Source: Eledone cirrhosa
Taxonomy: Eukaryota
NCBI GenBank assembly: GCA_964016885.1
Contig: CAXHJY010000430.1
Location: 62,001 to 126,000, forward strand
Length of the DNA stretch: 64,000 nt
Reading direction: 5' to 3'
Every line of letters starts with the position of its first letter. Position 1 is the first letter of the stretch. The notes beneath the pieces were generated by a model. The model was given only the letters and a program-made list of their open reading frames with translations, searched no databases and had not been told where the DNA came from. The position numbers and the translations under genes were made by a program. This document shows, piece by piece, positions 15,998 to 50,410 of this stretch.

Positions 15998-16109
15998 TAA
16001 CGAAGGAAATGTGGCAAGGAACCAGGTGGACCATAACGCACCAAAGTACTCAATACTTAGGGTAGTAGAGTGGGTAATAGGAACGAGTAGGGGTCCTACT
16101 CGTTCCTAT
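15998..16109 (-). mobile_element. Family F hairpin element in (TA)n
   Basis: Reverse complement of the tail ttacccactctactaccctaagtattgagtact..ccttcgtta, plus a short palindrome at 16077-16109. Confidence 0.8.
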
Positions 16110-16356
16110 ATATATATATATATATATATATATATATATATATATACACACACACCGAATAAATAATCTGTTTTCATGTGTTACACACAATATAACGTAG
16201 TAGGTATGAGAAGTCAGACATTGGTGTTTGTCTTCATAAATGCTCATACATCCTCTTATTCTGTTCTCTATATCACACATCTTTATATACAGTGAACCAG
16301 GAATTTTAATATTATCACCTCTAGCAACGGTTGGAACTTGACATACGGAAATAACA

Positions 16357-16650
16357 TTAGACTGAAGTTATAGTAAAATATTTCTTTTGTTTTTCCTGTC
16401 GGCCATTAATATTATATGAGACCACACGATATTTGCAACCCTTTCTAGGAATTAATCTCTTTAGAGTGGATAGTGAATATACAGCACCGTTGATGTCAAC
16501 AACCTCTTCCAGTGTGTACCATTCAGATATAGAGGTCATCTAGTGCTAGTAAACTACGGCGAGAGTACATGTTTATAACCTCTCAGACCTGAATTCTTTC
16601 CATTGTGTTCTCCAGAATGATTAACGCATTTTGGCTTCAAACGGTGTTAG
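16357..16650 (-). pseudogene. Possible decayed fibronectin type-III-like coding fragment
   Basis: WYTLEE...STLKRLIPRKGCKYRVVSYNING resembles the FN3 L-x-P-x3-Y-x-F-R-V-x-A-x-N-x2-G motif. An upstream frame gives GEHNGKNSGLRGYK, with stops and frameshifts in between. Confidence 0.3.
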
Positions 16651-17137
16651 ACGAAATAACGTTACTATTAATGGAAATTGTGTTGTTGTTGTTAGTGGTG
16701 ATAATTATTACTTTGTACTGCAGATGTTGGAGGCGGTGTAGTCGTTGTTGTTGTTGTTGACGGCGGGGTGATAGGTGCCATTACTAGGGCTGATGGTTGT
16801 TGGTGTCGTTGTTGTTGTTGTAGATGTGATGATGATGATGTTAATGGTGGCGGTGACGGTGGAGACGTGACGGTGATGTACGTAGTGTTGTTGTTGTTGT
16901 TGTTGTTGGTGTCGTTATTGTTGTAGATGTGATGATGATGATGGGAAGAGGAGAAATAAGTGAGTCAAGAATTCATAGGTGGAGGCTGATGCGAAATCAG
17001 CCAACATGGAGGAGCACAGATCACTGTAGTAGAGGTATAACAGGGGGAGAGGGAAGACAAACACGTCTGTGAATCAGAGGGTGAACATTATAGGAGAGCA
17101 GCTTCATGCCGATCAGTCAGGTGACATTTGTTTTGCT

Positions 17138-17372
17138 TGGATCAGCTAGAAATAACAGTCAAATCTCTCACAAGTGGTACCCTGGTGTAGTATAAAAGTA
17201 TCGGGCAGGCCTATGATAAAAGGCATCCCTGCTGCGACCACACCATATTTTTCTTCAGTGCACAGAACACACGACTACAATTTCCAATGTTTCCTTTTCT
17301 AAGAGGGTGGAGGCAGATTTGGCTGCTATTTCTAGCACATCGCGCGACCACGTAAATGCATCTTCGTTGGGT
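17138..17372. mobile_element. MITE-like family C copy with inverted ends
   Basis: gctagaaataacagtcaaatct (about 17146) / agatttggctgctatttctagc (about 17315). The same motif recurs at about 19515, 21140, 25675, 29580 and 52800. Confidence 0.5.
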
Positions 17373-17714
17373 CGACGATACGCAACGACATATGTAGGTA
17401 AAAGAAAACCCAAGGGTTGTCTATGGGAGGTGGTGTGTAATAGTTAAGAAGGTCCGCCTAATAACCCCGTCTTTTCATTAACATCCACTGCCTTGATTAC
17501 TTATGAAGATTTGTCATCTGTCTTTATATAAACACTCGGCTGACAACATTGTTCTCTGCAATACCTCCCTCCCTATCTTCTGTCACAACACCCCGCCATT
17601 CACACTATCAAAGCAACTGATGGAAAGGCGGGGCAGGCAGAAATTGCTAGGTCTTCGATGGGTGGAGGAAAGATTCTTTTAATCTATTGTTTAGCTTAAT
17701 TTGTGACCTGCTGT

Positions 17715-18408
17715 GGCTAGGGTGGTGGTGGTGGTGGGGGTGGGGGGTCTTGGTGGCGGTGGTGGTGGTCTTGGTGGTGGTGATGATGGTGGTGGGTGGT
17801 GGTGGTGGTGGTCTTGGTGGTGGAGGTGGTGGTGGTGGTCTTGGTGGTGGTGGTGGTGGTGGTGGTGGTCTTGGTGGTGGTGGTGGTGGTGGTGGTGGTG
17901 GTCTTGGTGGTGGTGGTGGTCTTGGTGGTGGTGGTGGTGGTCTTGGTGGTGGTCGTGGTGGTGGTGGTCTTGGTGGTGGTGGTGGTCTTGGTGGTGGTGG
18001 TGGTGGTCTTGGTGGTGGTCGTGGTGGTGGTGGTGGGGGGGGGGGGGTCTTGGTGGCGGTGGTGGTGGTGATGATGGTCGTGGGTGGTGGTGGGTGGTTG
18101 TGGTGGTGGTGGTGGTGGTGGTCTTGGTGGTGGTGGTGATGGTGGGTGGTGGTGGTGGTGGTGGTGGTGCTGGTGGTGGGTGGTGGTGGTCTTGGTGGTG
18201 GTGGTGGTGGTGGTGGTCTTGGTGGTGGTGGTGGTGGTCTTGGTGGTGGTGGTGGCGGTGGGTGGTGGTGGTGGTGGTGGTGGTGGTGCTGGTGGTGGGT
18301 GGTGGTGGTCTTGGTGGTGGTGGTGGTGGTGGTGGTGGTCTTGGTGGTGGTGGTGATGGTGGGTGCTGGTGGTGGGTGGTGGTGGATGGCGGTGGTGGTG
18401 GTGGGTGA
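17715..18408. repeat. (GGT)n tract with periodic CTT interruptions
   Basis: Directly visible. Confidence 0.95.
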
Positions 18409-47051: not shown

Positions 47052-47515
47052 TATATCCAAAATTAAGATAAATCAAATGAATTTAATCTAAATCAAAATT
47101 ATGGGTGTCATGCCAGAAAGACATGCGCCATATCACCCGGAAAATAAGCTCTAAGATTCTAACGAGTAGGTCCGAGTAATTTATAATAACTAGAAATTGA
47201 TTAACATATAAATAAACATGAATAATCACAGGAAATAATTAATCATATTATAAGGTATATATTTTTGAAGTTCTGGTCAACTTTATTTAGTTACCTACCT
47301 AGCTATGTGTGGTTACCCACTTGTAAAAATTATTTCCTGTGATTATTCATGTTTATTTATATGTTAATCAATTTCTAGTTATTATAAAATGCTCGGACCT
47401 ACTCGTTAGAATCTTAGAGCTTATTTTCCGGGTGATATGGCGCATGTCTTTCTGGCATGACACCCATAATTTTGATTTAGATTAAATTCATTTGATTTAT
47501 CTTAATTTTGGATAT
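47052..47515. mobile_element. Large inverted repeat (arms of about 190 bp, spacer of about 87 bp) between (TA)n tracts
   Basis: 47052-47240 is almost exactly the reverse complement of 47328-47515. Confidence 0.85.
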
Positions 47516-47570
47516 ATATATATATATATATATATATATATATATATATATATATATATATATATATATA

Positions 47571-47708
47571 TAGGAACCAGTAAGACCCCGACAGTGAGCT
47601 CAGCTGTCGGGGTCTTACTGGTTCCTATTACCCACTCTACTACCTCAAGTATTGAGTACTTTGGTGCGTTATGGTCCACCTGGTTCCTTACCACATTTCC
47701 TTCGTTAT
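47571..47708 (+). mobile_element. Family F hairpin element (variant)
   Basis: Palindrome centred on gacagtgagctcagctgtc plus the family tail. Confidence 0.85.
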
Positions 47709-47877
47709 ATATATATATATATATATATATATATATATATATATATATATATATATATATATATATATATATACGTTATTCCGGGTTGAATCGGAGGTAA
47801 CCACAGTAAGTAAGGTACTCAATACATAGCAGAGTATAACAGTTTTAATATAGAAGAGATTCTACAGGACTAGAACT

Positions 47878-47926
47878 GATTCCTGATGATTTCTAATGAA
47901 TGAAACAGCTCTAGTCCTGTAGAATC
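47878..47926 (+). ncRNA. Type-I hammerhead ribozyme inside a fold-back (47848-47936)
   Basis: GATTC-CTGATGA-T-TTC-TAAT-GAA-T-GAAA-CAG-CTCTAGTC-CTG-T-A-GAATC. A related 3' half with the perfect palindrome ACAGGACTAGTCCTGT lies at about 31587-31602. Confidence 0.65.
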
Positions 47927-50224
47927 TCTTCTATATATATATATATATATATATATATATATATATATATATATGTATATATATATAGAGAGAGAGAGAT
48001 ACATACATACATTTTCCCTATACAAAAAAAGTTCTTTAGAGATAGCCGCCATGTTGATAGTGCCAACAGTATAAATAGAGGAAAGATGAAAGCTTGGGCG
48101 TGTGGTGCTGAACAGTGTAGCACTTGGAGCAAATCCAGCCACATTACAATGTATGTAACCTGCCATGTAAATACATACAGGCTGTCATTATGGTGGAAGA
48201 CTAGCTTCAAGACAAGTGGGATTAAACTACAATTAAAAAGATATCTAGTCAGACAGGCAGACAGACAGGCAGACAGCACTGTCTTTATTGTAGGAGATTG
48301 TAACATATGCAAACTGTTTTATAGATCTGCCCTCTTCTGTCGGCCTGTTTGTCTATGTGTCTATCTATTTATTAGACTATGCACTTGTGTGTGTTTGTCA
48401 GACCCGTGTAACTGATCTCAGTTTGACAATCGCCACCGACGAATGCGAGAAAGTTCTCCAGGAAAGTTAACCAGGAATCTTTAAAACTCTCCCCATCGAA
48501 GTTAACAAAGAACTTACTAGATCTACAAAACCTAATTGTAAAATTATAATATTATAAAATTTAATTTAATTGTTTAGAACTACAAGTGAAGTCATTCTTT
48601 TCCTTTTTTTAATATATATATATATATATATATATATATATATACTTTAACTTTAATTATATCTCATAAAATAATACAACTGGTTTTTCCACATTATACA
48701 TATTGTTAGCACCCCAAACACTTAAATTGGGTTTATATTTTAATATAACCTAATGTTTGTTGAGTGAGATGGTTACCAGTCAGAGTTTAACTTTAAACTA
48801 TCTCTGTTATTGTATTAAATATATATATATATATATAGTATTAGTTATACTATTTATGGTTATGTAAATACAAAACCTTAAGCAGTTGTAGGTATTTTAC
48901 ACACAACCTAAATAGTGGTAGGCAGTATTGTATTACTACCTTATTACCAGTAAGTTAAGTAGCTCAATGTAAAAACATCAGATGATTTACAGAGCAGTTA
49001 TATGAATATATATATATATATATATATATATATATATATATATATATATATATTTATATATTTATATATATATATATATATATATATATATTAGGATAAA
49101 TATTGATGCAATTCAATTCAAGCACTCAACGTACTTTTTCCACATAGGAGTGACGGAGTAAATATCGAATAAGGAAAATATATATATATTTATATATATA
49201 CATATATATACATACATACATACATACATACATACATACATATATATATATATATATATGTATATGTATGTATATATATATATATATATATATATGTGTG
49301 TGTTTGTGTGCATAAGAGAAAGAGCACGAGGCGAGGTGTGATGCCCATATCGCTGCGGTTTACTCTCATCCCTAACACACCATCACGTCCATTAACGTAA
49401 GGAATATAATGGAGCACAAGATGAGGATCAAATGAGGTATGATACGGGTACCATGGTTCGCCCCTGGTTACTTTCTGACTTTTAAGGCGGTTCTCGTAGA
49501 CTTCCAAACCCGTACACACCAAACTTCACACTACCCCGTTTCTCACCTTGCTCACACCATCCTACCACTCCCCCTTCTTCACTCTAACACATGCGCACGC
49601 ACAACTTCTTCCCCCTCATTCACCATTATGCTACACATAGACACAAATATACATATATATATATGTATGTATATGTATACATATACACACATACACACAC
49701 ATATATATATATATATACATATACACACATACATATATATATATATGTATATGTATACATATACACACATACACACACATATATACATATTCACACATAC
49801 ATATATATATATGTATATGTATACATATACACACATACACACACACACACATATATATATATATATGTATACGTATACACACATACACACACACACACTC
49901 ACACACATACATATATATATATGTATACATATACACACATACACACACACAACATACATATATATATATGTATACATATATACATATACAGACATACACA
50001 CACACACACACACACACACACACACACATATATATATATGTGTATACATATACACATACACACACACACATACATATATATATATATATATATGTATAAA
50101 TATACATACATACACAGACACACACATACATATATATATATATGTATACATATACACACACACACGCATATATATATATATATATATGTGTGTGTGTGTA
50201 TGTATAGATATGTATATATATATA

Positions 50225-50410
50225 TAGGAAAAAGTATGACCCCGACGGCAGAGCTCAAGCCGTTTCGACGGCTATTTCTGGACTATTGAGTCCAGAAATA
50301 GCCGTCGAAACGGCTTGAGCTCTGCCGTTCGGGGTCATACTTTCTCCTATTACCCACTCTACTACCCTAAATATTGAGTTTTCTGGTGCGTTATGGTCCA
50401 TCTGGTTCCT
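50225..50410 (+). mobile_element. Family F hairpin element
   Basis: Palindrome centred on ggac-tattga-gtcc plus the family tail. Confidence 0.85.

What the first reader, a model, noticed from the sequence alone, without database searches (positions are those of the whole stretch)
15998..50410. Family F: fold-back palindromes whose apex maps onto ribozyme hairpins
Seen in sequence: seven copies (15998, 32308, 37448, 38057, 45109, 47571, 50225), each adjoining (TA)n, with palindromic heads of different length; six share a tail of about 80 bp. One arm reads stem II-GAAA-CGGC-loop-GCCG-T-C-GGGGTC, which is the 3' half of an HHR with a GUC site, but the CUGANGA half is replaced by an inverted copy. 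The inversion points fall at the stem II apex (45109, 50225, 38057), the stem III apex (37448, 47571) or the predicted post-cleavage 5' end GGGGTC (16090). Inference: cDNA snaps back at ribozyme hairpins and self-primes second-strand synthesis, so the ribozyme fold sets the insertion architecture and produces MITE-like palindromes from a retroelement.
Basis: partly seen in the sequence, partly recalled or inferred. Interest (0 to 1): 0.8.

Follow-up and report, generated by a model that had tools for sequence, protein, structure and literature searches.

The report
Penelope palindromes mark RNA start sites
These short mirror-image repeats are stubs of a known kind of jumping gene (a Penelope-like retrotransposon), and most of them centre on one fixed position that is likely the capped start of its RNA rather than a ribozyme hairpin, which suggests that both halves are copied separately from the RNA and points to how this group makes its long-unexplained inverted copies.

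Summary
All seven copies are real. They are short insertions of a 3,531-bp Hydra-clade Penelope-like element (PLE), which occurs in tandem arrays with an intact 766-aa RT + GIY-YIG frame. Its hammerhead has a U3-A8 core (UUGANAA), not CUGANGA. Mapped on the master, 149 of 290 arms end at -4..+7 of one site (TT-A-GT, +1). Only 1 ends in the true stem II loop; stem III loop (13, expected 23) and cut site (6, expected 5) are not enriched. The tailless arm outruns the tailed arm in 23 of 97 pairs, which snap-back cannot do. Arms ending at +1 often carry an extra G (15 of 23 unexplained bases, control 11 of 66). A second family shows the same pile-up and extra G, 29-33 nt below TATAAATA. Best reading: both cut target strands prime cDNAs at two fixed sites near the capped RNA 5' end, run off and join. 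No RNA reads were available to test this. The scan noted two-armed insertions and the Hydra clade earlier on other DNA of this genome; the start-site apex was in no note shown.

The parts
16000..16106 (-). Short two-armed insertion: tailed arm from +49, tailless arm from +42 (the predicted hammerhead cut site), in (TA)n
   Evidence: tailless arm read by eye (too short for the script)
32310..32488 (+). Short two-armed insertion, subfamily A: tailless arm to +2, tailed arm from +15, 1-nt overlap, 80-nt tail
37450..37585 (-). Short two-armed insertion joined through the two strands of stem III (tailed arm from about +21, tailless arm from +36)
   Evidence: (BLAST to the unit; the tail anchor missed this copy)
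38058..38592 (+). Subfamily C insertion: inverted head reaching about -2, short spacer, seven 53-bp tandem units (about -3 to +46), the last running into the tail
45108..45224 (.). Near-perfect palindrome centred on +1/+3; right arm tailless, left arm with at most 5 nt of tail
45167..45167 (+). Position +1 (A of TT-A-GT in the master), the inferred transcription start; preceded here by a G that could also come from the other arm
47573..47705 (+). Subfamily B insertion, tailed arm 100% identical to the tandem master over 111 nt; arms overlap on the 8-nt palindrome in loop III (+28/+28)
50227..50409 (+). Subfamily A insertion: tailless arm to -1, short spacer, tailed arm from +1 (50289) with an unexplained G at 50288; tail cut at about 62 nt

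Best explanation
Family F is the short insertion product of a Hydra-clade Penelope-like retrotransposon, and its palindrome centre is likely the capped 5' end of the element's RNA. Shown: the master is a 3,531-bp unit (hammerhead, 80-nt tail, 766-aa RT + GIY-YIG frame, about 1.1-kb 3' region). Insertions sit in (TA)n and end at two fixed points 80 nt apart, each followed by TAT in the master. One arm uses each end. Most arms stop at -4..+7 of one site, often with an extra G. Inferred: RNA polymerase II starts at that A (+1), inside hammerhead stem II, so the 5' copy of the ribozyme lacks its core. The endonuclease cuts both strands of (TA)n. Each 3' end primes a cDNA on the RNA, one at +138 (tailed arm) and one at +58 (tailless arm). 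When these sites are used in the cap-proximal copy of the repeat, both cDNAs run off the 5' end after at most 138 and 58 nt, and RT adds a C opposite the cap. The two cDNA ends join with 0-2 nt of overlap or a few added bases, and fill-in gives a palindrome of about 100-200 bp with a one-sided tail. When the downstream copy of a read-through or multimeric RNA is used, the same reaction gives kilobase inverted or tandem insertions. Ribozyme stems supply overlap in about a tenth of joins but do not set the architecture.
For: Master, ORF, fixed ends. RT fold closest to telomerase: Foldseek E 2.7e-8; VIA Z 17.4, 311 residues, rmsd 5.4. GIY-YIG: Atlas 0.95-0.96, motifs conserved in 98 aligned proteins. 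Pile-up: 149 of the 172 arms that reach +7 stop at -4..+7, against 12.5% expected from the downstream stop rate; this holds for tailed (77/91) and tailless (72/81) arms and for subfamilies A/D, B and C. 6,836 genomic sites have both arms reaching +5 with a spacer of 9 nt or less. Extra G: 15 of 23 bases not explained by the partner arm, against 11 of 66 at other positions, Fisher p 2.8e-5; on 10 tailed and 5 tailless arms. An untemplated 5' G is attributed to copying of the cap in L1/SVA insertions (PMC3287187, passage). Not a structural stop: 25 of 25 long read-through copies pass +1 (several share an array). Second family G: 9 of 18 arms end at +1..+3 and 1 goes beyond; TATAAATA lies at -29, -30, -32 and -33 in four long copies; the base before +1 is G in 41 of 100 listed sites where the master has C (counted by hand); L321 starts at -3 and runs into a related ORF. 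Arms of one insertion are more alike than arms of different insertions: last 15 nt identical in 53 of 87, against 31%.
Against: No transcript 5' end was observed; the start site and cap are inferred from DNA alone. None of the 9 long family F copies with a located 5' end starts at +1 (they start at -42 to -1314), so long insertions need another template (read-through from arrays, or circles). In the unbiased set the raw base before +1 is G 19, C 17, A 1 of 37; the G excess appears only after partner-explained bases are set aside, and 8 unexplained Cs remain (3 look like the partner's extra base). 30 of 290 arms end at -4..-1, so the wall is not sharp. The TATA-like word in F (40 of 49 long contexts at -28..-34) is weak, AT-rich and also part of stem II; by eye subfamily C lacks it. 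In subfamily C the commonest end is +10 (12 of 52), possibly an effect of the reference copies. In the random stretches plus window alone, 19 of 50 arms stop at -4..+7 and 4 go beyond. The order of events and the joining enzyme are not shown.
Confidence: 0.72

Rival explanations
1. Snap-back self-priming at ribozyme hairpins. One cDNA folds back on a hammerhead stem and copies itself. Self-priming at junction palindromes was also proposed for PLEs by Arkhipova et al. 2013 (PMC3846280).
For: 9 of 97 unbiased pairs overlap by 4 nt or more, at stem III, at the AGCCGT/ACGGCT pair or at small palindromes, including window copies 47571 and, by eye, 37448. Arms of one insertion share variants. In 74 of 97 pairs the tailless arm is not more than 8 nt longer, so these alone do not exclude it.
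Against: No enrichment at the true stem II loop (1 of 290), loop III (13 vs 23 expected) or cut site (6 vs 5). Tailless arm longer than the tailed arm in 23 of 97 pairs. The extra base sits on the tailless arm alone in L096 and L101. 39 of 97 joins have 0-1 nt overlap. Kilobase insertions have arms that cannot be copies of each other (L065, L074).
Confidence: 0.07
2. The wall at +1 is a non-capped RNA end or a stop: an RNA cleavage site (for example a U-A step or small-RNA-guided slicing), a strong RT pause, or an endonuclease cut in the cDNA. The two-primer architecture would still hold.
For: No long F copy starts at +1 (0 of 9). The site is a U-A step. Ends spread from -4 to +7.
Against: It does not predict a G-specific extra base at this site only, the same G in family G where the master base is C, or TATAAATA about 30 nt upstream in G. 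Long copies pass the site 25 of 25 times.
Confidence: 0.13
3. The short copies are themselves a non-autonomous, SINE-like family: they are transcribed from +1 and remobilised by the PLE protein, so most do not come from full-length sources. This is compatible with the start-site reading and changes only the source of the RNA.
For: Short copies far outnumber long ones: 5,700 subfamily B tail matches against 148 tail-to-ORF junctions. Variants are shared within insertions.
Against: Junctions are diverse and recur in different subfamilies and in both arm assignments, so the palindrome is not copied as a unit. Short copies lose the upstream TATA-like word. No test of lineage was made.
Confidence: 0.3
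4. A MITE with fixed terminal inverted repeats moved by a DDE transposase, or an assembly fold-back artefact.
For: Outer ends are fixed and inverted, and the flanks are TA.
Against: The sequence is contiguous with an RT + GIY-YIG ORF. Inner ends vary and the tail is one-sided. Arms differ by a few percent. Contigs of public runs show the same depth step near +1 and the TA joins at both ends (these may be the source sample, and upstream divergence between subfamilies inflates the step).
Confidence: 0.01

Closest known systems
Hydra clade of C-terminal EN+ Penelope-like elements (Craig et al. 2021, PMC8557442; section 11 read; Hydra-1_Obim listed in supplement S1/S2)
   Same: Single RT + GIY-YIG ORF with RW(K/R), DKT, CxCX5C linker, CxxC before E and CxH after N; (TA)n target; hammerhead; partial tandems, inverted 5'-truncated copy, one-sided tail.
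   Different: Unit is 3.5 kb (Hydra generally under 3 kb); tail 80 nt (30-40 typical); core U3-A8 with a stem II of about 56 nt. Hydra-1_Obim has a canonical CUGAAGA core and another sequence; four short motifs of F and G were not found in that supplement. The paper does not map apices to a start site.
Poseidon_Ac in vitro system (Frangieh et al. 2024, PMC11167929; parts 1-2 of 4 read)
   Same: Both target strands cut and extended; two internal RT start sites flank the tail; uncleaved RNA is the main template; a dimer is predicted.
   Different: There the start site is described as not homologous to the cut DNA; here both ends are followed by TAT in the master. The parts read do not explain inverted copies or report run-off at a capped end.
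U3-A8 hammerhead variant of Schistosoma Cercyon PLEs (Cervera and de la Pena 2014, PMC4209133; parts 1-2 of 4 read)
   Same: Same core covariation in a PLE terminal repeat; most motifs are solitary, some in opposite-strand pairs 100-700 bp apart.
   Different: That motif is a minimal hammerhead; F has a 5-bp stem III and a long two-part stem II that holds the inferred start site.
Penelope promoter in the pseudo-LTR (Schostak et al. 2008, PMC2377424, passages and Discussion) and A. vaga pLTR TATA/Inr with the self-priming model (PMC3846280, parts 1-2 of 5 and passages)
   Same: Transcription starts inside the terminal repeat; junction palindromes are noted.
   Different: PMC3846280 reads the palindromes as self-priming, possibly on an antisense template. 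The data here favour two sense-templated cDNAs.
L1 twin priming (recalled) and cap-derived 5' G of L1/SVA insertions (PMC3287187, passage)
   Same: Second target strand primes an inverted cDNA; extra G at full-length 5' ends.
   Different: L1 twin-primed segments do not overlap and start at variable sites (recalled); here both start sites are fixed and the arms usually overlap to form a palindrome.

Membership tests
EN+ Penelope-like element | Single ORF with telomerase-like RT | tested here: met
   766-aa frame; best fold matches are TERT by Foldseek and VIA; F-D, MG and YRDD motifs conserved in 98 proteins. Pfam and PDB sequence searches found nothing.
EN+ Penelope-like element | C-terminal GIY-YIG endonuclease | tested here: met
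   VIY...YIG, R, E, N conserved; Atlas GIY-YIG clusters 0.95-0.96. The domain was not folded and searched on its own.
EN+ Penelope-like element | Tandem or partial-tandem copies, inverted 5'-truncated copy, one-sided tail | tested here: met
   (13 long loci mapped); 128 of 129 pairs are tailed + tailless.
Hydra clade | RWK and DKT motifs | tested here: met
   RWR at 86-88, DKT at 166-168; R, W, D, K, T in 96-100% of the alignment.
Hydra clade | CxCX5C linker; CxxC and CxH around E and N; no CCHH | tested here: met
   CNCPDRSIC, CNLC, CKH with Cys/His in 96-99%; absence of CCHH read by eye from the sequence.
Hydra clade | (TA)n insertion | tested here: met
   Tail ends are followed by TA runs in most copies; TA after tailless ends was part of the anchor and so is no test.
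Hydra clade | Phylogenetic placement with named Hydra families | not tested
Hydra clade | Canonical hammerhead; length generally under 3 kb (typical, not strict) | tested here: not met
   Core is U3-A8 and the unit is 3,531 bp; the related family G has a canonical core.
Neptune clade | DKG motif, CX2-5CxxC linker and CCHH endonuclease | tested here: not met
   DKT and CxCX5C instead (against PMC8557442).
Type I hammerhead ribozyme | Core (C/U)UGAN(G/A)A...GAAA...NUH with three stems | tested here: met
   UUGANAA with N variable (C 26, A 15, G 15, T 3 of 69); 95.3% of cells paired and 3 pairs with two-sided change in 13 copies; the subfamily B master folds as the three-way junction, but z -0.26, and the two C copies fold otherwise. 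No Rfam match.
Type I hammerhead ribozyme | Self-cleavage | not testable with these tools
   Needs an in vitro assay.
MITE / DDE DNA transposon | Fixed terminal inverted repeats around a constant interior, with a DDE partner | tested here: not met
   Interior ends vary, tail is one-sided, partner ORF is RT + GIY-YIG.
RNA polymerase II start site at +1 | Capped 5' ends in RNA | not testable with these tools
   No RNA holder listed; only DNA-level signs.

The most novel reading that the evidence does not exclude
Penelope-type inverted repeats arise because both cut target strands copy the same capped, sense, uncleaved RNA from two fixed sites. The thousands of short palindromes are run-off products that record each family's transcription start to within a few bases, like a fossil 5' RACE, with the cap written in as an extra G. 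In family F the promoter is built into hammerhead stem II, so transcription itself switches off the 5' ribozyme. This would replace the published self-priming/antisense model and give a DNA-only way to map PLE promoters in any genome.
Probability: 0.6. Interest if true: 0.72.

Novelty: new variant of a known kind. Interest (0 to 1): 0.52.

Why it matters
How PLEs make their head-to-head inverted copies is called unresolved in PMC8557442, and PMC11167929 leaves the later steps of insertion unvalidated. The element is an ordinary Hydra-type PLE, but its abundance makes the junctions countable. They argue against fold-back self-priming and for two separately primed cDNAs that end at a capped RNA start. 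This gives exact predictions for the existing in vitro system (apex follows the RNA 5' end; extra G needs a cap). It also shows that MITE-like palindromes in (TA)n can be retroelement products, which affects repeat annotation, and it suggests a ribozyme stem that doubles as a core promoter.

Tried and rejected
Rfam found no hammerhead in the window (150 of 307 sub-threshold matches listed, nearly all microsatellite or hairpin hits to miRNA models) or in the master. The repeat finder was swamped by microsatellites. Pfam gave no useful family for the ORF or three homologs; PDB sequence searches were empty. A DNA search with the subfamily B tail found nothing, probably because its words are too common. 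One search used a wrong spacer length and was redone. No RNA holder was listed, which says nothing about expression; the laid runs are contigs of unknown kind and cannot show RNA ends. My first label 'Neptune' was dropped after the motif test. A splice acceptor at TTTAG was rejected: it would put ends at +3 with a constant upstream exon. The cut site of family G could not be tested, because the score floor drops arms shorter than 16 nt. Literature searches for a start-site or cap reading of PLE palindromes gave no paper stating it in the listings or passages read; subscription papers, such as Arkhipova 2006 and Evgen'ev and Arkhipova 2005, are not in the library, and supplements other than those of PMC8557442 were not opened. 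No tree was built. The host species was not identified.
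Full report
Observation. All seven copies are present between (TA)n runs with inverted heads. Five have the full 80-nt tail, 50225 has about 62 nt and 45109 at most 5 nt. The genome G000 (3.0 Gb) holds 5,700, 1,425 and 17,592 exact matches to three 30-nt tail variants, with none for reversed controls. 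Sixty evenly spaced 10-kb stretches gave 39 arms.

The master. Longer copies extend 5' through a 3' region into a coding frame. A protein search found 150 scored matches in G000, among them a tandem array with a period of 3,531 bp and a 766-aa frame from a TTG (the first in-frame ATG is at +232). An AlphaFold model (mean pLDDT 89.8, 98 sequences) matches telomerase RT best. The C-terminal part resembles GIY-YIG clusters. RW(R/K), DKT, CxCX5C, CxxC and CxH are conserved, which fits the Hydra clade as defined in PMC8557442 section 11 and not Neptune. An earlier scan note gave me the Hydra lead; I tested the motifs but built no tree. 1,488 relatives were found at E 1e-20 or better among 7,994 scored candidates.

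The ribozyme. In 13 aligned copies of three subfamilies, 95.3% of cells pair and three stem II pairs change on both sides; slid controls give 36-53% (related sequences inflate such counts). Rfam does not detect it and activity is untested. The real stem II is about 56 nt long, and its apical loop lies upstream of the place where the short copies fold.

Architecture. In 13 long loci and in the short copies, outer ends fall at two fixed points 80 nt apart, each followed by TAT in the master. 128 of 129 head-to-head pairs have one tailed and one tailless arm. This is the known PLE layout of inverted copy plus one-sided tail (PMC8557442), and it matches the two RT start sites and double-strand extension found in vitro (PMC11167929). 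Earlier scan notes on other pieces of this genome proposed the same two-primer reading.

Where the arms stop. I anchored each arm at its outer end and extended it along real reference copies. The unbiased set has 290 arms: from tail-only queries, random stretches, the window and incidental copies. 165 further arms from queries that required inner or coding sequence were left out, and nine duplicate loci were skipped. With +1 the A of TT-A-GT: 149 arms end at -4..+7, 23 go beyond -4, 1 ends in the true stem II loop, 13 in loop III (23 expected) and 6 at the cut site (5 expected). Of 172 arms that reach +7, 149 stop in that window against 12.5% expected; this holds in both arm types and all subfamilies, although the commonest end in subfamily C is +10. 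In random stretches plus the window alone, 19 of 50 stop there and 4 go beyond. 6,836 sites genome-wide have both arms reaching +5 within 9 nt of each other. Of 30 copies that read from tail into the ORF leader, the 25 long ones all pass +1, so the site is not an obligatory stop. None of the 9 with a located 5' end starts at +1, which counts against a simple full-length RNA from +1. The other 5 are short and start at +4, +12, +40, +41 and +119; two of these lie at the cut site.

Snap-back test. In 97 unbiased pairs the tailless arm reaches more than 8 nt further 5' in 23, the tailed arm in 13, and 61 are within 8 nt; 39 joins have 0-1 nt overlap and 9 have 4 nt or more. A tailless arm cannot be copied from a shorter tailed arm, and a tailed arm cannot be copied from a tailless one. 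Overlaps of 4 nt or more lie on stem III, on a six-base inverted pair around GAAA, or on small palindromes. PMC3846280 proposed self-priming, possibly on an antisense template, from the same kind of junction palindromes; these counts argue against it as the general route in this family.

The extra G. Among 54 non-coding-set arms ending exactly at +1, 31 preceding bases are explained by the partner arm; of the other 23, 15 are G and 8 are C, against 11 G of 66 at positions +2..+60 (Fisher p 2.8e-5). It occurs on 10 tailed and 5 tailless arms; in L096 and L101 only the tailless arm has it. The raw unbiased count is G 19, C 17, A 1, so the result depends on that sorting. By hand, the first 100 genomic matches show G 26, C 13, A 6, T 55 (T is the master base). 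In the first 50 near-symmetric junctions, 17 of 21 arms reaching +1 are followed by C on the cDNA strand, 4 of them unambiguously (by hand). An untemplated 5' G is attributed to copying of the cap in L1/SVA insertions (PMC3287187).

Second family. Family G (window about 47775-47930) has a canonical CUGAUGA hammerhead and the same layout. In loci not fetched for it, 9 of 18 arms end at +1..+3 just 5' of the ribozyme and one goes beyond. Four long copies have TATAAATA at -29, -30, -32 and -33. The master base before +1 is C, yet 41 of the first 100 matches have G, 46 C, 8 T, 5 A (by hand; mirror pairs count twice; about 29 Gs are unexplained by eye). The script count on 39 contexts is C 21, G 11, T 4, A 3. 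L321 starts at -3 and runs into a 465-codon frame 52% identical to the F protein. Most G arms cross the cut site, so uncleaved RNA was the template, as in vitro. Here the apex is not at any ribozyme hairpin. In F a weaker TATA-like word lies at -28..-34 in 40 of 49 long contexts, on the 5' strand of stem II.

Mechanism (inferred). Polymerase II starts at +1. The endonuclease cuts both strands of (TA)n. The two ends prime at +138 and +58 with TAT overlap, probably on one RNA, since arms of one insertion are more alike (95.4% against 91.8%; subfamily agrees in 86 of 87). Both cDNAs run off the capped end, are joined with little overlap and are filled in. Use of the downstream repeat of a read-through, multimeric or circular RNA gives long insertions. 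I put this at about 0.72; a non-capped end or stop at 0.13; snap-back as the main route at 0.07. A SINE-like source for the short copies (0.3) is compatible with the main reading.

Novelty. The element, its layout, the U3-A8 core, two RT start sites and a promoter in the terminal repeat (PMC2377424) are known. I found no statement that PLE palindrome centres mark capped start sites in searches, in passages of PMC13282606 and bioRxiv 10.64898/2026.07.22.740005, or in the scan notes shown (8 of 1,362; none). The library lacks most subscription papers. No RNA data were available, so the start site remains a prediction. Verdict: new variant of a known kind, interest 0.52.

Noticed in passing
window about 47775-47930: Family G: a second two-armed PLE family with a canonical CUGAUGA hammerhead and a tail sharing the ATTGAGTAC motif with F; apex at a site about 30 nt below TATAAATA; 4,953 matches to its 5' 20-mer pattern in G000, with an unexplained strand imbalance (3,894 against 1,059).
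   Followed up: yes
window about 12400-12600, 26675, 51474: Family H: same two-armed layout with ends near TT-A-GTTT; upstream lies a pyrimidine-rich stretch with several AG dinucleotides that looks like an intron end; no hammerhead seen by eye.
   Followed up: partly
window 38120-38500: Seven 53-bp tandem units inside one F copy; each carries 4 nt of the junction spacer, so the expansion likely followed the join.
   Followed up: partly
window 5858-5897 and 63490-63595: Two further perfect palindromes (18-bp and 53-bp arms) not assigned to a family.
   Followed up: no
G000:C2:356030072-356031890 and L340 (G000:C1:67880847-67881324): Short-period tandem arrays of PLE terminal pieces (299-bp period for F, seven copies; about 221-bp period for G, three copies), retrozyme-like.
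   Followed up: no
L066:2245-2345 (master hammerhead): The tailless end coincides with the 3' base of the extended stem I (GGAA/UUCC pairing in the folds), so the ribozyme fold may mark the second priming site rather than the apex.
   Followed up: partly
L032, L083, L278 and others: Some tailed arms stop exactly at the tailless start point (+57..+59: 9 of 167), giving non-overlapping inversions as expected if one cDNA runs into the other on one RNA; some of the 9 may be failed extensions.
   Followed up: partly
L305 and L312: Two of five short copies that run past the tail into the ORF leader start at +40/+41, at the hammerhead cut site; a hint that cleaved RNA is sometimes used.
   Followed up: no
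L031:5614-6954, L032:6099-6587, L034:5520-6395, L344: Other, more distant RT + GIY-YIG frames of the same type lie close to F copies; the genome carries many such families.
   Followed up: no
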